This document shows positions 3,218 to 41,238 of a stretch of DNA of 64,000 bases, one piece after another. Made by a program: the position numbers and the translations under genes. The notes beneath the pieces are model-generated. The model was not told the origin of the DNA. It ran no database searches and saw only the letters and a program-made list of their open reading frames with translations. How positions within the stretch are numbered: the stretch's first letter is position 1; each line of letters begins with the position of its first letter. Origin of the DNA: Hyphomicrobiales bacterium (GTDB lineage: Bacteria; Pseudomonadota; Alphaproteobacteria; Rhizobiales; Beijerinckiaceae); the NCBI GenBank assembly GCA_027484655.1, contig JAIXSM010000002.1:18249-82248 (forward strand), given 5' to 3'.

Positions 3218-5242
3218 ATGAGCGCCTACGAGCATGACTATCCCGATCACACGGCCACGCCGGGCTATGCGCACGGGGACGAGCCGCCCTGCAACGCCTC
3301 TTCAAATCCCACCTTCTACGATGTGGTGGACGCGCGCGCGTCCCGTCGCGGGTTCCTGCTCGGCGGTCTCGCTGCGGCGGTGACCGGAGTTTTCGCGGCT
3401 GGCGCAGGCTCGCAAGCGCGCGCGCAGGGCGCCGCGCAAAAGCCGTCTCTCATGGGCTTCAAGCCGGTGAAGGTGAGTGTCGCCGATACGGTGACTGTGC
3501 CGGAAGGCTATCGCGTGCAGGTGCTTGGCGCCTGGGGTGAGCCGATCACCGGCGCCATGCCTGCATTCCGGCCCGGCCTCAACACCGCGGCCGAGCAGGG
3601 CCAGCAGATCGGCATGCACCACGACGGCATGCATTTCTTTGCGATTGACGGCTCTTCGACGGATGGACTCATCGTCGTGAACCATGAGTACGTCGAGCCG
3701 CGCTTTTTGCACGCCGCCGCCAAGGGCAAGGAGCTGAACTCCGAAGCCTTCGTGCTGACGAATGGCGCGCGCGATGCGGAAGAGGTCGCCAAGGAACTCG
3801 CGGCCCAGGGCGTGGCCGTGTATCGCACGCGCCGTGGGGCTGACGGCCGTTGGAGCGTCGTCGCTGACCCGCGCAACCGGCGCATCACAGGCGCAACGCG
3901 CATCGAGTTTTCCGGGCCCGTGCGCGGCTCGGCGCACCTTGTGACGAAGTACAGCACGGATGGCGTCGCCACGCGCGGAACGCTGAACAACTGCGCCCAT
4001 GGCGTGACGCCCTGGAACACCTTCATGACGGCCGAGGAAAACTGGGCCGGCTACTTCCGCAACGCGGAGAAAATGCCGCGTGAGCAATCCCGCTACGGCG
4101 TGAGCCCGAAGCAGGGCCGCTATGGCTGGGAGCTGGCCGCAGGCGGCGCTGACGAGTTCGCCCGTTTCGATGCCACACCGAAGGGCGCGAGCGCGCGCGA
4201 AGATTACCGCAACGAGCCGAACGGCTTTGGCTGGATGGTCGAGATCGATCCGTTCAACCCGCAGTCCGTGCCTGTCAAGCGCACGCATCTGGGCCGCTTC
4301 GCCCACGAAGGCGTTGTGTTCGCCCCCGCCCAGCAGGGCAAGCCGGTGGTTTGTTATTCCGGCGACGACGCGCGCTTCGAGTACATTTACAAGTTCGTCT
4401 CCGCCAAGCCCTTCGATGCGAAGACCGCAAGCGGCGCGCTGCTTGATGAGGGCACTCTTTACGCAGCGAAGTTCAACGCGGATGGTTCGGGTGAGTGGCT
4501 CGCGCTGGCGCCCGGCCAGAATGGGCTCACCCCCGAAAACGGCTTCGCCAATCTGGCCGACATTCTCATCAACACCCGTCTCGCCGCCGACCGCGCCGGC
4601 GCCACAAAGATGGATCGTCCCGAGTGGGGCGCGGTGCATCCGGCCAATGGCGAAGTGTACTTCACGCTCACCAACAACACCGCGCGCACGCAAGCGCAGG
4701 TCGATCCGGCGAACCCGCGCGCGCAGAACCAGTTCGGCCAGATTGTGCGCTGGCGTGAGGATGGCGACGATCACGGCGCCACGAAGTTCCGTTGGGAGCT
4801 TTTTGTGATCGCCGGCAACCGCGCCACCAGCCGCACCTTCGCGGGACAGGCTCTGGGTGAGGACAACATCTTCGCTTGTCCCGATGGGCTCTGGTTTGAC
4901 GGCGCCGGTCGCTTGTGGATCCAGACCGACATCGGCGAAAGCGAGCAAAACCGCGGCGCCGTTGAGCCGATGGGCAACAACCAGATGCTCTGCGCCGATC
5001 CTGCAACGGGTGAAATCCGCCGCTTCCTCACGGGGCCTTCGGGTCAGGAGATCACCGGCGTCATCACCACGCCGGACATGCGCACGATGTTTGTGGGCGT
5101 GCAGCATCCCGGCGCAACAACCTCGCCGAAGGATTTTGCGGTGGGCAAGTTGACCTCGCATTGGCCGGATGGTCAGGGCGCGATCCCGCGCTCGGCCACG
5201 CTCGTCATCACGCGCGAGGATGGCGGCGTCATCGGCGCGTGA
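3218..5242 (+). CDS. phoX: PhoX-family alkaline phosphatase (DUF839), Tat-exported
   Basis: SRRGFLLGG Tat motif; HHDGMHFF, VNHEY, NNCAHG.TPW.T..T.EEN, GRFAHE, MDRPEW, CPDGL, QHPG motifs. Confidence 0.92.
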   Translation: MSAYEHDYPDHTATPGYAHGDEPPCNASSNPTFYDVVDARASRRGFLLGGLAAAVTGVFAAGAGSQARAQGAAQKPSLMGFKPVKVSVADTVTVPEGYRVQVLGAWGEPITGAMPAFRPGLNTAAEQGQQIGMHHDGMHFFAIDGSSTDGLIVVNHEYVEPRFLHAAAKGKELNSEAFVLTNGARDAEEVAKELAAQGVAVYRTRRGADGRWSVVADPRNRRITGATRIEFSGPVRGSAHLVTKYSTDGVATRGTLNNCAHGVTPWNTFMTAEENWAGYFRNAEKMPREQSRYGVSPKQGRYGWELAAGGADEFARFDATPKGASAREDYRNEPNGFGWMVEIDPFNPQSVPVKRTHLGRFAHEGVVFAPAQQGKPVVCYSGDDARFEYIYKFVSAKPFDAKTASGALLDEGTLYAAKFNADGSGEWLALAPGQNGLTPENGFANLADILINTRLAADRAGATKMDRPEWGAVHPANGEVYFTLTNNTARTQAQVDPANPRAQNQFGQIVRWREDGDDHGATKFRWELFVIAGNRATSRTFAGQALGEDNIFACPDGLWFDGAGRLWIQTDIGESEQNRGAVEPMGNNQMLCADPATGEIRRFLTGPSGQEITGVITTPDMRTMFVGVQHPGATTSPKDFAVGKLTSHWPDGQGAIPRSATLVITREDGGVIGA

Positions 5243-5262
5243 TGCGCATCGACTGAGCAAGA

Positions 5263-5296
5263 GACAGGGAGGGGGATAAGCGCCCCCTCGCCTGTC
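5263..5296. terminator. Hairpin after phoX, possible terminator
   Basis: GACAGG-GAGGGGG ... CCCCCTC-G-CCTGTC inverted repeat; no clear U-tract. Confidence 0.35.
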
Positions 5297-5460
5297 CACC
5301 GTTCTTCTGTCGCCGCTGTACCGCGCGCGCGGTCAGATTGCGCGCCTCGCATTGCGCCGCCGTCCCATGGAAGCGCGCGGGCGCCCACAAATCCGCCTTG
5401 CGCGGCCTCTCGCCCCTTGCGACATTTCAAATCGTGAAAATCAGTCGCGGGAGCGGGGCC

Positions 5461-6222
5461 ATGGCGCGTGTTTGGGATCCTTATTTGACAGCTTCCGACA
5501 GGGAGCATCTGGCCGTTTCCCGCGACCGGCGCGTCGGCTTTGGCCGCAAGCCCGCGCTGCTTCTCGTCGATCTGTACAGGGCCGTGTTCGGGGACAAGCC
5601 CGAGCCCCTGATGGAGGCCATCAAGACGTGGCCATCGAGTTGCGGCATGGCGGGCTGGAACGCGCTGCCGCATATCCAGAAGCTGCTCGCAGGCGCGCGC
5701 GCGGCGCAGATCCCCGTGATCCACATCACCATGCTCGCCGACTCCGGCATGCTCGGCTGGTACGACGCAGCCCACCGTGACAGCGGCGGCCGTGGATCTG
5801 TTGGCCGGTCGCTCGCCGCCGACCTAGATGCAGCGGCTCTTGACCGTAAGAAGCGCGCGGCTGACATCGTTGACGAGGTGGCCCCTGTTCCCGGCGAAGT
5901 CGTGCTGAAAAAGACTGCGCCAAGCGCGTTCTGGGGCACGCCTCTCGCTGGCCACCTGACGTTCCATGGCATTGATACGCTGATTGTGGCGGGCGAGGCG
6001 ACAAGCGGCTGCGTGCGCGCCTCTGTCGTTGAAGCGGCATCTCACCGCTATCGCGTGCAGGTGGTTGAGGAGTGTTGCTTCGATCGCCACGAGGCGACCC
6101 ACGCGATGAACCTCTTCGACATGCATCAAAAGTACGCTGACGTGATCCCGGTGGCGGATGCGCTTGCGTATCTGGCGAAGTTTGCGGAGCCGGCTCCTGC
6201 GCTGACGCCCGTTACGGCGTGA
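5461..6222 (+). CDS. Isochorismatase-family cysteine hydrolase (maleamate/N-carbamoylsarcosine amidase-like)
   Basis: Asp-Lys-Cys triad in ALLLVD, KTAPSAF, GEATSGCVRASVVEA; start at ATG 5461. Confidence 0.88.
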   Translation: MARVWDPYLTASDREHLAVSRDRRVGFGRKPALLLVDLYRAVFGDKPEPLMEAIKTWPSSCGMAGWNALPHIQKLLAGARAAQIPVIHITMLADSGMLGWYDAAHRDSGGRGSVGRSLAADLDAAALDRKKRAADIVDEVAPVPGEVVLKKTAPSAFWGTPLAGHLTFHGIDTLIVAGEATSGCVRASVVEAASHRYRVQVVEECCFDRHEATHAMNLFDMHQKYADVIPVADALAYLAKFAEPAPALTPVTA

Positions 6223-6275
6223 GCTACGCGCGCGCTGCGCTCCGGCCCAATGAACAATTTGTGATCGGGAGCTGG

Positions 6276-6294
6276 TTTACTTTCCGTTAACCAT
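6276..6294 (+). promoter_or_regulatory. CtrA-like binding site
   Basis: TTTA-CTTTCCG-TTAACCAT: one mismatch to TTAA-N7-TTAAC and contains the TTAACCAT half-site. Confidence 0.45.
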
Positions 6295-6348
6295 TTGGTT
6301 GGAACGGTTCTTGCTGGGATTGAGGCGGCGCTAACCCGGAGGTTCATC

Positions 6349-6438
6349 ATGCGTGGTGACGATGTCGTCGTGCTTAGTACAGCTCTGATGGGCGTGTTTC
6401 TCTCCGTCTGGTTCCTCGTCCAGACGGTCGAGCTGTAG
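6349..6438 (+). CDS. Putative 29-aa single-pass membrane peptide
   Basis: GGAGG RBS at 6338-6342; MRGDDVVVLSTALMGVFLSVWFLVQTVEL*; below the ORF-track length cutoff. Confidence 0.55.
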   Translation: MRGDDVVVLSTALMGVFLSVWFLVQTVEL

Positions 6439-6457
6439 GAACGGTGGTGGGGGGCGT

Positions 6458-7408
6458 TCAGGCGCCCCCACTCGCTGCTGCGGCTGCGCGCGTCGCCTGC
6501 ACGTGCAATCGCTCAAAATCCTCCCGCCGGCACAGGTCCGAGCCGGGCGTGAGAACCGCCGCTGTGCCTGCGGCGAGACCCATCACGAAGGCCTCCCGGG
6601 CGCTGCGGCCGGTTGCAAGCCCCAGCGTCATGGCCGCAACGAAACTGTCTCCCGCGCCAACGGCGCTGCGGGCCTCCACGGGTAGGGCCGGCAGCCGGAA
6701 AGCTCCGTCGCCATCGACCAGCACGGCTCCCTCATGTCCCAGCGTAATCGCCAGCAGGGTGACTTTTCCCGACGCCACAAGCGCTGCCGCTTCGCGCTCA
6801 AGTTCACCGGGTTCGAGCTTGCGGCCGACAAGCGATTCGAACTCGCCCTGGCTTGGTTTGCACAAAAACACGCCACCGCCTGCCAGCGTTTCGCGCAGGG
6901 CGTCTCCGGACGTATCGAGCACAAACCGGGCGCCCTTCGCGCGGGCCTGCGCGCCCACTGTCGCGTAAAAGCCGGCGTCGAGCCCGCGGGGGAGGCTGCC
7001 GCTCGCCACCAGCCAGTCGCAATCCGGGTGCGCGAGCGTCTCCAGGCAACGCTGCGCTTCGTCCGGCGCGATGCGCGGCCCCTCGGGCACGAAGCGGAAC
7101 TCAAGGCCGCTTGAGGTTTCGAAAACAGTCTGGCTGATCCGTGTGTGACCCTTGATGGGCACGACCGTCCGCGGCACCGCGCGTCGCTCCAGCAGCGCGT
7201 CCAGCACGGGGCCAGTGGCGCCCCCGGCGAGGTAGATCGCCAGCGTCTCGCCGCCCAGCTCCCGCACAACGCGGCTGACGTTGATGCCGCCGCCGCCGGG
7301 ATCAAAGCGCTCGTTGCGCGTGCGCACCTTGTGAATGGGGCGCACCACGTCGGCCTCGCTTGCGCCATCGATGGTCGGATTGAGAGTGAGTGTGACGATG
7401 GGCTTCAT
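6458..7408 (-). CDS. 1-phosphofructokinase-family (PfkB) hexose kinase
   Basis: IVTLTLNPTID, PGGGGINV, ASGSLP, KP..GE and SAVGAGDSF motifs; start MKPIV at 7408. Confidence 0.92.
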   Translation of the reverse strand: MKPIVTLTLNPTIDGASEADVVRPIHKVRTRNERFDPGGGGINVSRVVRELGGETLAIYLAGGATGPVLDALLERRAVPRTVVPIKGHTRISQTVFETSSGLEFRFVPEGPRIAPDEAQRCLETLAHPDCDWLVASGSLPRGLDAGFYATVGAQARAKGARFVLDTSGDALRETLAGGGVFLCKPSQGEFESLVGRKLEPGELEREAAALVASGKVTLLAITLGHEGAVLVDGDGAFRLPALPVEARSAVGAGDSFVAAMTLGLATGRSAREAFVMGLAAGTAAVLTPGSDLCRREDFERLHVQATRAAAAASGGA

Positions 7409-7662
7409 CGGCGCTCCGCAGGCTTGCAACGTGGGCGGGACTTGAGCCCGATCCCGGTCCGCGCGCAAGCCTCGTCTGCTTATGCGTGCGCCCGAGTTCG
7501 CCAGTCCGCAGGCGCCTTCGACATCCACCAGCGGCTCGGCTAGTTTCGCGACAGGCCTTTGTCCAACGCGAACGCATCCATGTGTTGTCCGCGCTGGCCG
7601 CGCCTGCGTTCATGCGGTCCATGGCTCGGGCGTTCGCCGGGCGAAAGGTTTAGTCCAAAAAA

Positions 7663-8910
7663 ATGGCGGCGCCGGATCTGAAACCGCGACCTCGCGTGCT
7701 GAGCGTGTGGGGTCATCGCAACTTCACAATTTTTATGGTCGGGCTGACGCCTGCTGCGATCTCCTCCTGGATGCAGCGGGTGGGCGTCGGTTGGCTGACG
7801 TGGGAGTTGACCGGATCCACGGTCTGGCTTGGAATCATCGCAGCAGCTGATCTCGTGCCGATCCTTCTGCTGTCGCCGCTTGCGGGGGCTGTGACGGATC
7901 GCATGTCGTCGTTGCGCCTGATCCGCGTGACGCAATGGATGCAGTTCATCCACGCGGCTGCGCTGGCGGCGCTGACTTACGCCGGGCTCATGAGTGTGAC
8001 CCTGCTGCTTGCGCTCACCCTGGCGCTGGGCGTCGTCCACGCGTTCTCCACTGCGGCGCGCCATGCGTTTGTGCCGCTCACGGTGCCGCGCAGCGAGGTG
8101 CCGACCGCGGTCTCCCTTGACTCAGCGTTCTTTCAGGCGAGCCGGTTCATCGGCCCGGCCATCGCCGCGCTTGTCATCCCCGTGTGGGGCGTTTTTGGCG
8201 CGTTTCTCGCGCACGCCATCGGCACATTTGTGTTCGCGGGACTCATGCACATGATGACAGAGCCTTCAGGGGAGGCGCTGCGTCACCGGTCACGCAAGCT
8301 GCTCGGCGATGTGAAAGAAGCGTACAGCTACGTGCGTTCTCACGCGGGCATCTGGCCGCTCATGATTATGTTGGCGGCCGCATCGGTGTGCGTCCGGCCC
8401 TTGCAGGACATGCTGCCGGGTTTTGCTGGCGAGGTGTATGGCTCGGGCGCTTCAGGCCTTGCCTGGCTCACTTCAGCCATGGGCGTGGGCGCGATGGTCA
8501 GCGCCGCGTGGGTCGCGGTGCACGGGCGCACAAGCGGGCTCACCAACGTCTGTTTTATTGGCACGGCCCTGTCCAGCGTGTCGCTGATCGGACTTGTGGC
8601 GACCGACTGGTTTCCGCTCGGGCTGGCTTTCGCCGCGGTGTCTGGCTACGCGCTCAACAATCTCTCAACGAGCGTGCAGGCGCTTGTGCAAACCTCCGTC
8701 GAGGATCAACTGCGCGGGCGCGTGATGAGCCTTTACACGCTCATTTATCGCGGGCTGCCGGCCGCAGGCGCGCTGGTGTTTGGCGTCGCCGCCGAGTTCA
8801 TCGGCCTGCGCTGGACCTTCGCCCTGGCGGGCGTGGCCTGCTTCGTGGCGCTCGCAGCCCTAGCCTCCCAGCGCGCCGCGATGATCGCCTCGCTGGAGAG
8901 GCGCCACTGA
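7663..8910 (+). CDS. MFS transporter (EntS/H+ antiporter-like)
   Basis: About 12 hydrophobic segments, GAVTDRMS motif A, LRGRVMSLY. Confidence 0.9.
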   Translation: MAAPDLKPRPRVLSVWGHRNFTIFMVGLTPAAISSWMQRVGVGWLTWELTGSTVWLGIIAAADLVPILLLSPLAGAVTDRMSSLRLIRVTQWMQFIHAAALAALTYAGLMSVTLLLALTLALGVVHAFSTAARHAFVPLTVPRSEVPTAVSLDSAFFQASRFIGPAIAALVIPVWGVFGAFLAHAIGTFVFAGLMHMMTEPSGEALRHRSRKLLGDVKEAYSYVRSHAGIWPLMIMLAAASVCVRPLQDMLPGFAGEVYGSGASGLAWLTSAMGVGAMVSAAWVAVHGRTSGLTNVCFIGTALSSVSLIGLVATDWFPLGLAFAAVSGYALNNLSTSVQALVQTSVEDQLRGRVMSLYTLIYRGLPAAGALVFGVAAEFIGLRWTFALAGVACFVALAALASQRAAMIASLERRH

Positions 8911-8981
8911 GTTGACCCCACAGCGCGCGCGACTATCCTCGCGCCAACCGTGAACGCAGCCAAAGAGGGCGGAAACATCTC

Positions 8982-9614
8982 ATGAAACTCATCGGATACT
9001 TCAGAAGCGGCGCTTCTTATCGCGTGCGCATCGCGCTGAACCTCAAGGGGATCGGCGTCGAGCACGCGTTCAAGCACTTGCGCAAGGGCGAGCACAAGGA
9101 GTCCGACTACCTCGAGGTGAACCCGCAGGGCCTCGTGCCGACGCTGTTTACCGACGAAGGGCAGGCGCTCACCCAGTCCATCGCCATTCTCGAATGGCTG
9201 GAGGAGACCCACCCCGCGCCGGCCATGCTGCCGAAGGATCCCATCGCCCGGGCTCGCGTGCGCGCCTTCGCGCTGGCCATCGCGTGCGACGTGCATCCGG
9301 TGCAGAACCTTGGCGTCCTCAACAAGCTGAAGGCGTATGGCCTCGATGAGGCGAAGGCCAACCAGTGGGCGAAGGAGGTCAATTTCGACGGCCTCGCCGC
9401 CTGCGAAAGCCTGATCGCGAAAGAGCCGGGGCCGTTCTGCTTTGGCGACCAGCCGACGATGGCGGACATCTGCCTCGTGCCGCAGCTTGTGAACGCGCGG
9501 CGCTTCGGCGCTGACGTTTCAGCGTTCCCGCGGCTTCTGCAGGCTGAAGCGGCGTGCCTGGCCCACCCGGCGTTCGCCGCGGCGGCGCCGGAAAAGCAGC
9601 CGGACGCTGAGTAA
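8982..9614 (+). CDS. maiA: GST-zeta maleylacetoacetate/maleylpyruvate isomerase
   Basis: YFRSGASYRVRIALNLKG, NPQGLVP, LTQSIAILEWL, CDVHPVQN. Confidence 0.92.
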   Translation: MKLIGYFRSGASYRVRIALNLKGIGVEHAFKHLRKGEHKESDYLEVNPQGLVPTLFTDEGQALTQSIAILEWLEETHPAPAMLPKDPIARARVRAFALAIACDVHPVQNLGVLNKLKAYGLDEAKANQWAKEVNFDGLAACESLIAKEPGPFCFGDQPTMADICLVPQLVNARRFGADVSAFPRLLQAEAACLAHPAFAAAAPEKQPDAE

Positions 9615-9644
9615 CAAATTTTGCACAAAAAGTTTGCCGCGGCT

Positions 9645-9674
9645 CTTGCAGAAATTCGCGGCCGACATCAAATT
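9645..9674 (+). promoter_or_regulatory. Putative sigma70 promoter for an intergenic RNA
   Basis: CTTGCAG -35, 17-nt spacer, CAAATT -10; no credible coding gene downstream on this strand. Confidence 0.4.
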
Positions 9675-9680
9675 GAGATC

Positions 9681-9820
9681 AATCGGTCGCGGCGCGAGAG
9701 CCCCAGCCCCCCAATCGAGCGCAGCGACCGTCGCGCTTCGGATGTGTCGACCACGGATGTACTGGCGGCCGTTCATGCAAGCGCTGGGAAGCCTCGGGTG
9801 AAAGCCCCGGGGCTTTTTCC
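9681..9820 (+). ncRNA. Candidate small RNA (about 140 nt) with a C-rich loop
   Basis: Stem 9684-9695/9719-9730 enclosing GAGAGCCCCAGCCCCCCAATCGA; ends in a terminator hairpin. Confidence 0.4.
9789..9820 (+). terminator. Intrinsic terminator (possibly bidirectional)
   Basis: AAGCCTCGGG-TGAAAGC-CCCGGGGCTT followed by TTT..GTTTTT. Confidence 0.7.
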
Positions 9821-9834
9821 GTTTTTGCGAGCCC

Positions 9835-10335
9835 TCAGCCCAGATGATGCGCCAGCATTTTCAGGCACATGCGCTCGAAGGCCGCACGCTCGTCGGCATC
9901 CAGCGCCGCGATCAGCCGCTCCTGCGCGTCCTTCACCGCCGGGGTCGCGCGGGCCAGCGCGGCGCGGCCGTCGTCAGTCACCGCCAGCACGTTGATGCGT
10001 CGATCTTCCGTCGAGGCACCCCGGGCGACCCAGCCCTTCTGCTCAAGCCGGTCGATCACCCCGCCGATGGTGGCCCGGTCGTAGCCGATGAGGGCGGCGA
10101 GCCCCGCCTGTCCAACACCCGGCCGCTGCGCAATCGCGGCCAGCGCTGCGTACTGCACGGGCGTGATTTCGGGGCCGACGCTCTCGCAAAACAGGCGCAC
10201 GGCGACCTGTTGCAGGCGGCGGATGTGGTGGCCCGGCATACGATGCAGGGCCACGTCGCTCGCCGCCGTGTCAGCGTAGTCGGGCGTCTCGTGGGACGCC
10301 CGCTGCGGCGCGCCGCCGTCCTTTAATCGAGACAT
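9835..10335 (-). CDS. MarR-family transcriptional regulator
   Basis: ITPVQYAAL, GVGQAGLAALIGYDRATIGGVIDRLEQKGWV..DRR; start overlaps the monooxygenase stop (alternative start at MPGHH). Confidence 0.9.
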   Translation of the reverse strand: MSRLKDGGAPQRASHETPDYADTAASDVALHRMPGHHIRRLQQVAVRLFCESVGPEITPVQYAALAAIAQRPGVGQAGLAALIGYDRATIGGVIDRLEQKGWVARGASTEDRRINVLAVTDDGRAALARATPAVKDAQERLIAALDADERAAFERMCLKMLAHHLG

Positions 10336-40005: not shown

Positions 40006-40125
40006 GACGTCTCCTCCTGGGCGCCACAGTCGCGCGGCGTTCGCCTTCCAGATATACAGCGTTCCCAGGCGAGGCCGCCAGTGGCGGCGGCGAGCGCGAA
40101 ACCGGCGTGCGAACTGGAGAGTGGA

Positions 40126-41238
40126 ATGCCCGATCTGGCGCAGCTTGGCGAGGATCTCCGCAAGATCGATAGCCTCATCATGGACCTTGTGAAGCGCCGC
40201 ATGGACGTGGCCCATCTCGTCGCCCAGGAGAAACAGCGCACCGGCGGGCTCATGTATCGTCCGCAGATCGAGGACCAGCGTATCGCCGCCATCGGCGAGC
40301 ACGCCCGCTCCATCGGCCTCAACCCGCACATGGCGCGCGCCATGCTTTATTTCCTGATCGCTGAATCCTGCAAGGAGCAGACGATCCTCATCGAGTCGCA
40401 GCAGGGCTCGGCTGCGCGGCCGGACGCGGACCGGCTGAAAGAAAACCTTCTGCGCCTCACTGAGAAGGTCGCGGCCTCCTACGACGAGCGTGATCTCTCC
40501 CGCGCCTTCGCGACGCAGGCCTATGCGGCCTACGAGATGGAGCTGATCCGCGCCGACGCGCAGGCCAGCGGCGACCGCGCGCTGGCGCTCGATCTTGGCT
40601 GCGCCACCGGGCGCGTGGCGCTTGATCTCGCATCCCTGTTCGAGGCGGTCGCCGGCTACGACGTGAGCCCGCATATGGTCGCAGCGGCGCAGGCCAAGGC
40701 GGCGGCGCGGGGCGCCAGCAACGCGCGCTTCGCCGCGCTCGATCTTGACGCCCAGCCCCTGCCGGAAGTCGACGCCAGCGCCTCGTTCGTGGTGATGAAC
40801 ATGGGCACTGCGAGCGACGTGGCGAACTTGCCCCATGTGCTGGGCGAGATAGGCCGCGCGCTGAAGCCCGGCGGGCGGTTCCTGCTCACATTCTACAACG
40901 CCGATGCGCTGCTCTACAAAATGGGATTCCTGCCGTGGGTCGCGAGCCTGGAGGCGGTGGTGAACCCCTACACCATGTGCCTCGATGTGCGCATTGGCGA
41001 CGCGCTCGCGCCCGTTCACGCGCAGCTCTACGCGGAGGGGGATGTGCGCGCGGCCTTGCCCGGGACGCTTTCGGTCGATGCGGTGTCGAGTTTTCCGCAG
41101 ATTGCGGCCGTTCTGCCGGACGAGGTGCTGGGCGACGCAAAGGTGCGCGCGTCCATCGACCGGCTTGACCGCGAGTTGGCGAAAGGCGCCGAGGGCCACG
41201 GCGGCGCGTATCTGATCGTGCGCGGCCGGCGGGTTTGA
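40126..41238 (+). CDS. Fusion of an AroQ chorismate-mutase-like domain and a class I SAM-dependent methyltransferase
   Basis: Residues 1-90 LRKIDSLIMDLVKRRMDVAHLVAQEK...E...ESCKEQ; C-terminal ALDLGCATG, GYDVSPHMV, ALKPGGRFLL. Confidence 0.85.
   Translation: MPDLAQLGEDLRKIDSLIMDLVKRRMDVAHLVAQEKQRTGGLMYRPQIEDQRIAAIGEHARSIGLNPHMARAMLYFLIAESCKEQTILIESQQGSAARPDADRLKENLLRLTEKVAASYDERDLSRAFATQAYAAYEMELIRADAQASGDRALALDLGCATGRVALDLASLFEAVAGYDVSPHMVAAAQAKAAARGASNARFAALDLDAQPLPEVDASASFVVMNMGTASDVANLPHVLGEIGRALKPGGRFLLTFYNADALLYKMGFLPWVASLEAVVNPYTMCLDVRIGDALAPVHAQLYAEGDVRAALPGTLSVDAVSSFPQIAAVLPDEVLGDAKVRASIDRLDRELAKGAEGHGGAYLIVRGRRV

What the first reader, a model, noticed from the sequence alone, without database searches (positions are those of the whole stretch)
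40126..41238. Degenerate chorismate-mutase domain fused to a SAM methyltransferase
The first ~90 aa align by eye with AroQ mutases. Against E. coli PheA CM (from memory), Arg28, Lys39, Glu52, Ser84 and Gln88 equivalents are kept, but Arg11 appears as Gly (QLGEDL) and Arg51 as Ile (RPQIE). The usual partners of AroQ are prephenate dehydratase, prephenate dehydrogenase or DAHP synthase, not a class I methyltransferase. Inference: the domain may be a chorismate/prephenate or aromatic-acid sensor gating a methyltransferase, or the protein methylates a chorismate-derived metabolite.
Basis: partly seen in the sequence, partly recalled or inferred. Interest (0 to 1): 0.7.

Follow-up and report, generated by a model that had tools for sequence, protein, structure and literature searches.

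The report
Rewired chorismate-mutase domain on a methyltransferase
This gene encodes a rare, uncharacterised protein in which a chorismate-mutase-fold domain with a rebuilt (not decayed) binding pocket is fused to a SAM methyltransferase, and in other bacteria the same gene sits next to the tryptophan tRNA and its charging enzyme, hinting at an unknown link between aromatic metabolism and tryptophan decoding.

Summary

"Degenerate" is the wrong word. In 139 of 151 family members exactly two cationic residues occupy EcCM positions 11/48/51/55. Here Arg45 and Arg52 replace the lost arginines. The CM domain is the most constrained part of the protein (dN/dS 0.07 versus 0.21).

The fusion is rare and uncharacterised: about 230 clusters at 50% identity, and 44 of 185,579 species genomes, all MAGs (Patescibacteria and one alphaproteobacterial clade).

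New context:
- In Patescibacteria the gene adjoins trpS in 25 of 31 loci.
- tRNA-Trp lies within 2 kb in 9 loci.
- A sister clade carries a YbaK-type aminoacyl-tRNA editing domain instead of the CM domain.
- Two alphaproteobacteria place the gene behind a class II DAHP synthase.

Best reading (confidence about 0.35): a substrate-coupled chorismate/prephenate-plus-SAM enzyme working in the Trp-tRNA sphere. The rivals are an allosteric sensor and methylation of a small molecule unrelated to tRNA. No activity has been tested.

The parts
40116..40121 (+). Shine-Dalgarno-like GGAGAG, 4 nt before the ATG
   Evidence: Sequence read. Supports 40126 as the true start, as do homologues starting at MPDL.
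40126..41238 (+). CDS of the 370-aa AroQ-methyltransferase fusion protein (stop codon 41236-41238)
   Evidence: There are 48 full-architecture homologue clusters. dN/dS is well below 1 among 9 orthologues.
40126..40401 (+). AroQ / CM_2-fold domain (aa 1-92): helices H1 4-39, H2 46-62, H3 67-92
   Evidence: Pfam CM_2 47.8 bits. Ungapped profile alignment to 1ECM, E 2.4e-9. AF2 secondary structure. dN/dS median 0.068.
40147..40149 (+). Gly8 codon, at the position of EcCM Arg11' (the arginine donated by the partner subunit)
   Evidence: alignment. Family counts at this position: G 105, A 18, R 18, S 4 of 157.
40198..40233 (+). Arg25 (=EcCM Arg28) to Lys36 (=Lys39): retained carboxylate-binding and ether-oxygen-binding residues on H1
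   Evidence: R25 in 156/157 and K36 in 151/157 members.
40258..40281 (+). H2 pocket face: Arg45 (EcCM Asp48 position), Ile48 (Arg51 position), Glu49 (=Glu52), Arg52 (Leu55 position). This is the relocated cationic pair.
   Evidence: Arg is never at both 45 and 48: 103 members have R45 with I/V48, and 30 have non-R45 with R48. 139/151 members have exactly two K/R among positions 8/45/48/52. Positions 48 and 55 line the EcCM active site (PMC5526877).
40363..40380 (+). H3 motif E80-S81-C82-K83-E84-Q85 (S81=EcCM Ser84, C82=Val85, Q85=Gln88)
   Evidence: S 135, C 129, K/R 140 and Q 149 of 157 members.
40402..40425 (+). Inter-domain linker (aa 93-100), predicted disordered and variable in length across the family
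   Evidence: pLDDT below 50 at aa 94-97. Gapped region in alignment A1.
40426..40899 (+). Class I SAM-methyltransferase N-cap and Rossmann core (aa 101-258). It includes motif I D156-LGCATG-162 (40591-40611), D179, D206, the clade-specific N225-x-G-T-A-S-D231 loop (40798-40818) and F256-Y257-N258 (40891-40899).
   Evidence: Pfam. Foldseek top hits are class I MTases 6F5Z and 2AVN. Motif statistics by architecture.
40900..41235 (+). C-terminal beta-rich lid (aa 259-370) with family hallmarks P270-W271, Y302, P324, P331, D348, G360-x-Y362
   Evidence: AF2 strands 285-298, 315-323 and 362-369. Invariants shared with the CM-less sister clade. hhalign to a Pseudomonas CmoM-like protein extends to profile column 347.

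Best explanation
The gene encodes a conserved two-domain enzyme of a small, uncharacterised family.

Shown:
- The N-terminal module is a true AroQ (CM_2) fold. Its pocket keeps the catalytic core of E. coli chorismate mutase: Arg28, Lys39, Glu52, Ser84, Gln88, the hydrophobic lining and the H1 dimer interface.
- Two of its arginines have moved. Arg11', donated in trans by the partner subunit, and Arg51 are gone. Arg45 and Arg52, at pocket positions 48 and 55 of the same chain, take their place.
- The pocket still has four cationic residues suited to a chorismate/prephenate-type dicarboxylate, and it is the most strongly constrained part of the protein.
- The C-terminal part is a class I SAM methyltransferase with a beta lid, in the structural neighbourhood of TM1389 and CmoM.

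Inferred (my commitment): the two modules are substrate-coupled rather than merely regulatory. The AroQ module binds chorismate, and probably converts it to prephenate. It presents this ligand to the SAM site, which either uses it as co-substrate (the logic of CmoA, which needs prephenate plus SAM) or methylates it or a close derivative. The product serves tryptophan decoding, meaning tRNA-Trp, Trp-tRNA-Trp or TrpRS. I infer that last link because in Patescibacteria and in basal canonical-CM relatives the gene sits in a trpS / tRNA-Trp cluster, and because the sister clade of the methyltransferase carries a YbaK-type aminoacyl-tRNA editing domain instead of the AroQ module. The acceptor and the chemistry are unknown.
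For: Real gene and domains.

Remodelling rather than decay:
- R25 is present in 156/157 members, K36 in 151, E49 in 153 and Q85 in 149.
- Exactly two K/R among positions 8/45/48/52 in 139/151 members. The patterns are R45+R52 (104 members), R48+R52 (20) and canonical R8+R48 (10). Arg is never at both 45 and 48.
- EcCM residues 48 and 55 are active-site residues (PMC5526877).
- H1 interface hydrophobics are kept in 85-99% of members.
- dN/dS is 0.068 for the CM domain against 0.21 for the methyltransferase part.

Coupling rather than sensing:
- Ten clusters carry the full canonical CM catalytic set on the same methyltransferase; six of them branch basally in a rough NJ tree and three others nest inside the Patescibacteria clade.
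- The methyltransferase active-site signature (A160 in motif I, N225, T228, D/E231) occurs in the great majority of CM-fused members (A160 in 130 of 144) and in canonical-CM ones. Sisters without CM have G160, M228 and F231.
- The methyltransferase-plus-lid part is acidic (median net charge -8, pI 5.3), like small-molecule-acting CmoA (-10) and unlike CmoM (+1).
- Prephenate is an established co-substrate of a SAM enzyme in tRNA modification (CmoA; PMC10491745).

Trp-tRNA link:
- trpS (TIGR00233, 259 bits) is adjacent in 25/31 Patescibacteria loci, often 12-27 nt upstream on the same strand.
- The same arrangement is seen for canonical-CM variants P0164 and P0169, with gaps of 15 and 8 nt.
- tRNA-Trp(CCA) lies within 2 kb in 9 loci. 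It accounts for 9 of the 22 tRNA genes seen.
- Sister-clade proteins carry PF04073 tRNA_edit (E 1e-20 to 1e-25).

Aromatic-pathway link: a class II DAHP synthase (729 bits) sits directly upstream in L017 and L043.
Against: - No activity was measured, so everything about function is inference.
- In the window and the other Beijerinckiaceae-like loci there is no trpS, tRNA or DAHP synthase nearby. The neighbours are an HD-domain gene or SURF1 upstream and thrC plus a GNAT gene downstream.
- Context counts in Patescibacteria are not phylogenetically independent.
- Loss of Arg11' lowers mutase activity by orders of magnitude in E. coli CM (my recollection of published mutagenesis). The compensation by Arg52 is a sequence argument only.
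- CmoA's methyl pocket is hydrophobic (PMC10491745). This family has polar and acidic residues (N225, T228, S230, D231) in the aligned loop, which argues against CmoA-type ylide chemistry.
- hhalign similarity to CmoA (score 71) and CmoM (score 94) is no more than expected between class I methyltransferases.
- Patescibacteria generally lack aromatic amino-acid biosynthesis (general knowledge, not checked here), so a chorismate supply is unclear.
- An acidic methyltransferase domain argues against direct tRNA binding.
Confidence: 0.35

Rival explanations
1. Allosteric sensor. The AroQ module no longer catalyses anything. It binds chorismate, prephenate or another aromatic acid and gates the methyltransferase, as the CM-like N-terminal domains of Bacillus, Listeria and Geobacillus DAH7P synthases gate that enzyme.
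For: There is precedent for regulatory CM_2 domains fused to another catalytic domain (PMC5526877; PDB 3NVT, 5J6F and 5GMU appear among the profile hits). Loss of Arg11' and Arg51 at their canonical positions is expected to cost catalysis more than binding. The high pTM (0.84) suggests a fixed inter-domain arrangement.
Against: The catalytic pair Lys39/Gln88 and Glu52 are kept in 96-98% of members, and the cationic count is conserved exactly. That is more constraint than binding alone usually needs. Basal members have a fully canonical CM. The methyltransferase active-site loop changes together with presence of the CM module, which is not expected for a remote allosteric domain.
Confidence: 0.22
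2. Small-molecule pathway enzyme unrelated to tRNA. The protein methylates chorismate, prephenate or a derived aromatic acid or amine, for example an O- or N-methylated shikimate-pathway product. The trpS / tRNA-Trp neighbourhood then reflects only a shared tryptophan/aromatic theme or inherited synteny.
For: The methyltransferase domain is acidic. The best profile hits in PDB include small-molecule N- and O-methyltransferases: PEAMT, OvsM/OvoM, UbiG, MitM, RebM. DAHP synthase II is adjacent in L017 and L043. TrpD-like and BtpA/SgcQ genes sit in the same strand cluster in L020 and L028. Invariant acidic E137 and D/E231 near the acceptor site would suit an amine or hydroxyl acceptor (alignment-level inference).
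Against: It does not explain the YbaK-type editing-domain fusion in the sister clade, which shares the acceptor-side hallmarks FYN, W271, Y302, P324, D348 and GxY. It also does not explain the enrichment of tRNA-Trp itself next to the gene. No biosynthetic cluster is conserved around the gene in Alphaproteobacteria.
Confidence: 0.2
3. Direct tRNA methyltransferase with a borrowed helical module. The methyltransferase modifies tRNA-Trp directly, like CmoM on cmo5U34. The AroQ-fold domain serves only as a dimerisation or RNA-binding scaffold.
Against: The buried polar pocket residues (E49, S81, Q85, K36) and the hydrophobic lining are conserved, which a scaffold would not need. CmoM's substrate-binding Arg26 and Trp124 are not conserved. 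The methyltransferase-plus-lid part has net charge about -8, atypical for a tRNA-binding surface.
Confidence: 0.1
4. Ordinary bifunctional housekeeping protein. The N-terminal domain is simply the cell's chorismate mutase for Phe/Tyr synthesis, fortuitously fused to an unrelated methyltransferase.
For: The CM_2 hit is above the Pfam threshold. Canonical-CM members exist. Two alphaproteobacterial loci are next to a DAHP synthase.
Against: The fusion is maintained across Patescibacteria and Alphaproteobacteria, with co-varying methyltransferase active-site changes. The canonical Arg11'/Arg51 are lost in about 90% of members. Patescibacteria are not expected to make Phe/Tyr (general knowledge). 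Context is trpS / tRNA-Trp rather than pheA/tyrA.
Confidence: 0.06

Closest known systems
E. coli chorismate mutase domain of PheA (EcCM, PDB 1ECM), AroQ alpha class
   Same: Three-helix AroQ fold. Ungapped alignment over residues 7-94 (E 2.4e-9). Arg28, Lys39, Glu52, Ser84, Gln88, Leu7, Val35, Ile81 and the H1 dimer-interface leucines are conserved.
   Different: Arg11' becomes Gly, Arg51 becomes Ile, Asp48 becomes Arg, Leu55 becomes Arg, Val85 becomes Cys and Leu86 becomes Lys. The fusion partner is a SAM methyltransferase rather than prephenate dehydratase. Activity is untested.
Regulatory or weakly active CM_2 domains fused to DAH7P synthase (B. subtilis AroA N-domain, L. monocytogenes 3NVT, Geobacillus 5J6F)
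   Same: An N-terminal CM_2 domain is fused to a different catalytic domain. There is precedent for the domain acting as a chorismate/prephenate-binding regulator (PMC5526877).
   Different: Those domains keep the canonical Arg11'/Arg51 set, and their partner enzyme is in the same pathway. Here the cationic residues are relocated and the partner is a methyltransferase.
M. tuberculosis intracellular CM Rv0948c (AroQ delta), which works in complex with class II DAHP synthase
   Same: Best single-sequence PDB matches of the window's N-domain (5MPV, 2QBV; E about 0.01-0.02). In two alphaproteobacterial relatives the gene directly follows a class II DAHP synthase.
   Different: Rv0948c is a stand-alone 90-aa protein that keeps the Arg11' equivalent. 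No DAHP synthase is near the gene in the window.
CmoA (carboxy-SAM synthase), the known SAM-fold enzyme that uses prephenate as co-substrate
   Same: Class I SAM fold. Acidic protein acting on small molecules. The middle glycine of motif I is replaced (CmoA GCSLG, here GCATG) and an Asn follows strand 4 (VVLNF versus VVMNM). It serves tRNA modification.
   Different: The alignment is limited to the Rossmann core (103 columns) and the C-terminal half is different. CmoA's methyl pocket is hydrophobic (PMC10491745), whereas here it is polar and acidic. CmoA has no CM domain.
CmoM (tRNA cmo5U34 methyltransferase) and its structural neighbour TM1389 (PDB 2AVN)
   Different: NCBIfam CmoM score is 34.8 bits against a cut-off of 366. 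CmoM's substrate-binding Arg26 and Trp124 are not conserved (Trp124 aligns with Asp231). This protein is acidic.
Sister clade found here: the same methyltransferase plus lid fused C-terminally to a YbaK/ProX-type tRNA_edit domain (e.g. P0184, P0174), and stand-alone forms
   Same: Methyltransferase plus lid match at E 1e-55 to 1e-72, with shared invariants Y119, E137, FYN, W271, Y302, P324, P331, D348 and GxY.
   Different: No AroQ domain. Motif I is the canonical GCGTG, and the loop after strand 4 is FGMGSF instead of NxGTASD. This clade is also uncharacterised.

Membership tests
AroQ / Pfam CM_2 (chorismate mutase type II) | Sequence match to the family model above the curated threshold | tested here: met
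   PF01817, 47.8 bits against gathering score 27, aa 11-85. Family profile against 1ECM, E 2.4e-9.
AroQ / Pfam CM_2 (chorismate mutase type II) | Three-helix topology with a long H1 and conserved H1-H1' dimer-interface hydrophobics | tested here: met
   AF2 helices 4-39, 46-62 and 67-92. Interface positions are 85-99% hydrophobic. Dimer formation itself was not modelled.
AroQ / Pfam CM_2 (chorismate mutase type II) | Complete canonical catalytic set (Arg11', Arg28, Lys39, Arg51, Glu52, Ser84, Gln88) | tested here: not met
   Arg11' is Gly8 and Arg51 is Ile48. The other five are kept. Cationic residues are relocated to positions 48 and 55.
AroQ / Pfam CM_2 (chorismate mutase type II) | Catalysis of chorismate to prephenate | not testable with these tools
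   Needs an enzyme assay or complementation of a CM-null strain.
Class I SAM-dependent methyltransferase | Rossmann-like fold with matches to the family models | tested here: met
   Methyltransf_25/31/11/12 at E 1e-13 to 1e-16. Foldseek probability 1.00 to many class I MTases.
Class I SAM-dependent methyltransferase | SAM-binding motifs: motif I GxGxG, an acidic residue at the end of strand 2, an acidic residue after strand 3 | tested here: inconclusive
   D179 and D206 are invariant. Motif I is D-L-G-C-A-T-G, with the middle Gly replaced by Ala in 130/144 CM-fused members. CmoA has Ser there and still binds SAM, so binding is likely but unproven.
CmoM (tRNA cmo5U34 methyltransferase) | Score at or above the NCBIfam equivalog cut-off | tested here: not met
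   NF008264, 34.8 bits against 366.
CmoM (tRNA cmo5U34 methyltransferase) | Substrate-carboxylate binders Arg26, Trp124, Tyr247 (PMC10516636) | tested here: not met
   Trp124 aligns with Asp231. No conserved Arg at the Arg26 position. The alignment is at loop level, so precision is plus or minus one residue.
CmoA (carboxy-SAM synthase) | Full-length homology to CmoA and a hydrophobic pocket around the SAM methyl | tested here: not met
   hhalign covers only the Rossmann core (columns 159-264, score 71). The aligned loop is polar and acidic, whereas CmoA's pocket is hydrophobic (PMC10491745).
CmoA (carboxy-SAM synthase) | Prephenate-dependent conversion of SAM | not testable with these tools
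   Needs LC-MS of SAM products with and without chorismate/prephenate.
Regulatory CM_2 domain (DAH7PS-type allosteric module) | Ligand binding to the CM pocket changes the activity of the fused catalytic domain | not testable with these tools
   Only the architecture analogy can be shown.

The most novel reading that the evidence does not exclude
The family is a previously unknown chorismate/prephenate-dependent SAM enzyme dedicated to tryptophan decoding. It would either make a modified cofactor or metabolite, or directly modify tRNA-Trp, Trp-tRNA-Trp or TrpRS. That would tie the chorismate branch point (the precursor of Trp) to the Trp translation machinery in Patescibacteria and a clade of Alphaproteobacteria. 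Its AroQ active site would have been rebuilt so that all cationic residues come from one chain.
Probability: 0.25. Interest if true: 0.85.

Novelty: new variant of a known kind. Interest (0 to 1): 0.7.

Why it matters
For enzymology: AroQ mutases are a textbook model of electrostatic transition-state stabilisation. A natural family that moves two of the four cationic residues (Arg11' in trans to Arg55 in cis, and Arg51 to Arg48), keeps the count constant, and includes intermediates and canonical relatives is a ready-made evolutionary experiment on how that active site can be rebuilt.

For RNA and translation biology: prephenate is already an unexpected co-substrate for tRNA and rRNA modification (CmoA, TrhP, RlhA). 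A CM-fold module welded to a SAM enzyme, sitting between trpS and tRNA-Trp and with a YbaK-fused sister clade, points to an undiscovered reaction in aminoacyl-tRNA or tRNA metabolism. It occurs in Patescibacteria, whose reduced genomes keep few non-essential genes.

For annotation: these proteins are currently named 'UbiE/chorismate mutase' or 'methyltransferase domain-containing protein', which is uninformative and partly misleading.

Tried and rejected
1. Cis-regulatory RNA. Rfam at gathering thresholds on the window and six related loci found no T-box, SAM or other riboswitch near the gene. The only hits were a tandem glycine riboswitch at 58.6 kb and a tRNA. The promoter/terminator scan around the gene was at background level.
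2. Window neighbours as functional clues. The HD-domain gene upstream is not conserved in orthologous loci, which have SURF1 and ctaE there. thrC and the GNAT gene downstream are conserved only within the close alphaproteobacterial clade, so this is most simply synteny.
3. CmoA orthology. Rejected because only the Rossmann core aligns.
4. CmoM orthology. Rejected because the score is far below cut-off and the substrate-binding residues differ.
5. The first single-sequence PDB search of the N-domain gave only marginal hits (E about 0.01). The family profile was needed.
6. Literature searches for the fusion, for 'chorismate mutase-like' plus methyltransferase, and for trpS plus CM in CPR found nothing relevant.
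7. tRNA-Trp genes next to the gene look ordinary (CUCCAAA loop, A37), so they give no hint of a target nucleotide.
8. The context of a YbaK-fused sister (L088/L089) was uninformative.
9. I could not obtain model coordinates. Pocket geometry, the inter-domain interface and the dimer could therefore not be examined.
10. Whole-genome content (shikimate pathway, other CMs, cmoA/cmoB) of the carrier genomes could not be queried.
Full report
**1. Observation**

The + strand ORF 40126-41238 is the 3' two-thirds of a longer mechanical ORF.

Pfam finds CM_2 (aa 11-85, E 1.7e-12, 47.8 bits, gathering score 27). It also finds several overlapping class I methyltransferase models (aa 154-262, E about 1e-15). 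NCBIfam gives no equivalog-level hit. The best are generic methyltransferase and CM domain models far below their cut-offs.

AlphaFold2 on a 33-sequence alignment gives a confident model (pLDDT 89.1, pTM 0.84). It shows three long helices (4-39, 46-62, 67-92), a disordered linker (94-97), a Rossmann core and a beta-rich C-terminal lid.

**2. Residue mapping**

A single-sequence PDB search of the N-domain is only marginal (E about 0.01, to M. tuberculosis and Corynebacterium intracellular CMs). A profile of 21 family N-domains aligns without gaps to E. coli CM 1ECM, residues 7-94 (E 2.4e-9). It also matches PchB, MjCM and other AroQ structures. Window residue k therefore corresponds to EcCM k+3:

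| EcCM residue | Window residue |
|---|---|
| Arg11' | Gly8 |
| Arg28 | Arg25 (kept) |
| Lys39 | Lys36 (kept) |
| Asp48 | Arg45 |
| Arg51 | Ile48 |
| Glu52 | Glu49 (kept) |
| Leu55 | Arg52 |
| Ser84 | Ser81 (kept) |
| Val85 | Cys82 |
| Leu86 | Lys83 |
| Gln88 | Gln85 (kept) |

The EcCM active-site list, including Asp48 and Leu55 as pocket residues, is taken from PMC5526877.

**3. The family is rare and uncharacterised**

- The word-indexed search found 48 clusters, all with the same CM_2 + methyltransferase architecture. One group at 73-88% identity is labelled Beijerinckiaceae. A second group at 30-43% is labelled Paceibacterota and similar.
- An exhaustive profile search of 1.84 billion representatives gave 232 clusters at E <= 1e-30.
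- Among 185,579 species genomes, 44 carry the fusion. All are MAGs: about 16 Alphaproteobacteria (Beijerinckiaceae/Hyphomicrobiales-labelled; three divergent at 44-49%) and about 30 Patescibacteria (Yonath-, Kaiser-, Taylor-, Azam-, Zambryskii- and Staskawiczbacteria and others).
- Source names are only automated: 'UbiE/chorismate mutase' and 'methyltransferase domain-containing protein'.
- Four literature searches found nothing on the fusion.

**4. Remodelled, not degenerate**

I aligned 190 family sequences, of which 157 carry the CM region.

- The catalytic core is almost invariant: Arg25 156/157, Lys36 151, Glu49 153, Gln85 149, Ser81 135, Val32 141, Ile78 142.
- Position 8 is Gly (105), Ala (18) or Arg (18).
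- Position 48 is Ile/Val (107) or Arg (31).
- Position 45 is Arg (119) or Asn and others.
- Position 52 is Arg (139).

These positions co-vary.

- Arg is never present at both 45 and 48. There are 103 members with R45 and I/V48, and 30 members with non-R45 and R48.
- The number of Lys/Arg among positions 8, 45, 48 and 52 is exactly two in 139 of 151 members.
- The patterns are R45+R52 (104 members; the window's pattern), R48+R52 (20) and canonical R8+R48 (10).

So the pocket keeps four cationic residues, as a canonical AroQ site does. The one normally donated in trans by the partner's helix 1, and Arg51, have been moved to neighbouring pocket positions on helix 2 of the same chain.

Two further checks point the same way.

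- The H1-H1' interface hydrophobics are kept in 85-99% of members, so a dimer is still likely.
- Among nine alphaproteobacterial orthologues, Nei-Gojobori dN/dS is 0.04-0.08 (median 0.068) for the CM domain. It is 0.14-0.27 (median 0.21) for the methyltransferase part. dS is high (0.6-1.6), so the absolute values are rough, but the contrast is clear.

The CM module is the most constrained part of the protein.

Ten clusters have a completely canonical CM set on the same methyltransferase. In a rough NJ tree without support values, rooted on the CM-less sisters, six of them form the basal branch of the CM-fused clade. The alphaproteobacterial sequences form one clade beside the Patescibacteria.

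**5. The methyltransferase**

The genome scan also returned Pseudomonas proteins that share the FYNRDALVY motif. They are CmoM-like by NCBIfam: 215 bits, best hit, but below the cut-off.

| Comparison with the family profile | hhalign result |
|---|---|
| E. coli CmoM | score 94, 121 columns |
| Pseudomonas CmoM-like protein | score 87, 175 columns, reaching into the lid |
| E. coli CmoA | score 71, Rossmann core only |

These values do not exceed what unrelated class I methyltransferases give. CmoM's substrate-binding Arg26 and Trp124 are not conserved, and Trp124 aligns with Asp231. I therefore do not file the protein under CmoM or CmoA.

More informative is a sister clade found by the exhaustive search.

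- It has the same methyltransferase plus lid (E 1e-55 to 1e-72) without the CM domain.
- It is either stand-alone (267-298 aa) or fused C-terminally to PF04073 tRNA_edit, the YbaK/ProX aminoacyl-tRNA trans-editing domain (eight clusters, E 1e-20 to 1e-25).
- Both clades share invariant Y119, E137, D179, D206, F256-Y257-N258, W271, Y302, P324, P331, D348 and G360-x-Y362.
- Nearly all CM-fused members, including those with a canonical CM, have A160 in motif I (GCATG; 130 of 144) and N225-x-G-T228-A-S-D/E231.
- The CM-less sisters have GCGTG and FGMGSF instead.

The active-site loop next to the SAM methyl thus changes together with presence of the CM module.

The methyltransferase-plus-lid part is acidic (median net charge -8, pI 5.3). 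That compares with E. coli CmoA at -10, CmoB at -5 and CmoM at +1.

**6. Genomic context**

In the window the neighbours are:
- ispH, an NYN-domain gene, thrB, rnhA and a divergently transcribed HD-domain gene upstream.
- thrC, a GNAT acetyltransferase and a GGDEF-EAL membrane protein downstream.

Orthologous alphaproteobacterial loci have ctaG, ctaE and SURF1 upstream and the same thrC and GNAT genes downstream. This is probably synteny and says little about function. The window has no trpS, no class II DAHP synthase and no tRNA gene.

I clustered ORFs from 46 loci. In Patescibacteria:
- The gene adjoins trpS (TIGR00233, 259 bits, cut-off 177) in 25 of 31 loci. It is often directly upstream on the same strand with gaps of 12-27 nt or overlaps, and otherwise divergent.
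- One locus (L029) has a trpS copy on each side.
- tRNA-Trp(CCA) lies within 200 nt in seven loci and within 2 kb in nine. It accounts for 9 of the 22 tRNA genes found in all 37 loci scanned.
- Further recurrent neighbours are an AstE/AspA-like deacylase (20 loci), a BtpA/SgcQ barrel (11), a TrpD-like phosphoribosyltransferase below the trpD cut-off (9) and a YbdK-like ligase (7).
- In L020 and L028 the order trpS, gene, TrpD-like, BtpA is on one strand.

The trpS-upstream arrangement recurs for two basal canonical-CM variants, P0164 and P0169, with gaps of 15 and 8 nt. It does not recur for P0172, which follows pyrF.

In two divergent alphaproteobacteria (L017, L043) the gene directly follows a class II DAHP synthase (729 bits).

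These counts are not phylogenetically independent. However, the variety of arrangements and the recurrence in a deep branch argue for more than inherited order.

**7. Mechanism**

Shown:
- A real, strongly constrained AroQ-fold pocket with relocated cationic residues.
- A class I SAM fold with a clade-specific active-site loop.
- A rare architecture.
- Trp-decoding neighbours in Patescibacteria.
- An editing-domain sister clade.

Inferred: the modules are substrate-coupled. My reasons are:
- (a) The catalytic Lys39/Gln88/Glu52 equivalents are kept at 96-98%.
- (b) Six canonical-CM clusters form the basal branch of the CM-fused clade in that rough tree.
- (c) The SAM-site loop co-varies with the CM module.
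- (d) The SAM domain is acidic, like CmoA.
- (e) SAM plus prephenate has a direct precedent in tRNA modification (CmoA; PMC10491745).

I put this at about 0.35. Against CmoA-type chemistry specifically, the aligned loop is polar and acidic, whereas CmoA's methyl pocket is hydrophobic.

| Rival | Confidence |
|---|---|
| Allosteric sensor | 0.22 |
| Small-molecule methylation unrelated to tRNA | 0.20 |
| Direct tRNA methyltransferase with a scaffold domain | 0.10 |
| Housekeeping CM fused by accident | 0.06 |

The weakest point for any Trp-tRNA reading of this particular window is that the alphaproteobacterial loci lack that context. The inference rests on orthology: about 40% identity, the same architecture and the same motifs.

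**8. Novelty**

Both folds are known. The architecture, the charge-relocated AroQ pocket and the trpS / tRNA-Trp / YbaK associations are, as far as I could find, undescribed. I rate it a new variant of a known kind, with a plausible but unproven route to something new: a chorismate/prephenate-dependent SAM reaction in Trp decoding.

**9. Limits**

- No coordinates of the model were available, so there is no pocket geometry, inter-domain interface or dimer analysis.
- The shikimate-pathway content of the carrier genomes is unknown.
- The loop-level alignments to CmoM and CmoA are uncertain by about one residue.
- The effect of Arg11 loss on EcCM activity is from my memory of published mutagenesis, not checked here.

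Noticed in passing
window:58573-58782 (+): Tandem glycine riboswitch aptamers (RF00504; 66.2 and 33.1 bits, gathering score 32), presumably upstream of a glycine-cleavage or transporter gene.
   Followed up: no
window:39205-40041 (-): A 278-aa HD-domain protein transcribed divergently from the gene, about 85 nt apart. It has weak similarity to PhnZ/TmpB-type HD oxygenases (27 bits, far below cut-off). It is not conserved next to the gene in orthologous loci, which have SURF1 there.
   Followed up: partly
window:39205-41481 (-) and window:39244-41238 (+): Very long mechanical ORFs (758 aa antisense; 664 aa in-frame upstream extension) overlap the gene. These are high-GC shadow ORFs, not genes. 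The antisense one is real only in its 3' part, which is the HD gene.
   Followed up: partly
L020:~4980-9900 and L028:~4160-9700 (Patescibacteria loci): A same-strand cluster of trpS, the CM-methyltransferase gene, a TrpD-like phosphoribosyltransferase (105 bits, below the trpD cut-off of 199, with an N-terminal extension of about 120 aa) and a BtpA/SgcQ TIM barrel. This could be an unrecognised Trp-related or tRNA-related pathway in organisms thought to lack Trp synthesis.
   Followed up: partly
L029:~5000-9100: Two trpS-like genes (333 and 323 aa) flank the CM-methyltransferase gene in one Paceibacterota MAG. A duplicated TrpRS is unusual in such small genomes.
   Followed up: no
L043:6001-7162: The orthologue in this long-read alphaproteobacterial MAG is split into two overlapping ORFs (6001-6876 and 6842-7162). 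This is either a frameshift from assembly error or a pseudogene.
   Followed up: no
P0168, P0173, P0174, P0177, P0183, P0184, P0186, P0195 (e.g. L088:6001-7386): An uncharacterised architecture: a class I methyltransferase with lid fused to a C-terminal YbaK/ProX-type aminoacyl-tRNA editing domain (433-461 aa). It is the sister clade to the family studied here.
   Followed up: partly
window:43610-46636 (+): A 1008-aa multi-pass membrane protein whose C-terminal sequence reads by eye like PAS, GGDEF and EAL domains. It was not run against any library. It lies just downstream of the thrC and GNAT genes.
   Followed up: no
window:37029-37613 (+): A 194-aa NYN-domain (predicted RNase) protein inserted between ispH and thrB.
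   Followed up: no
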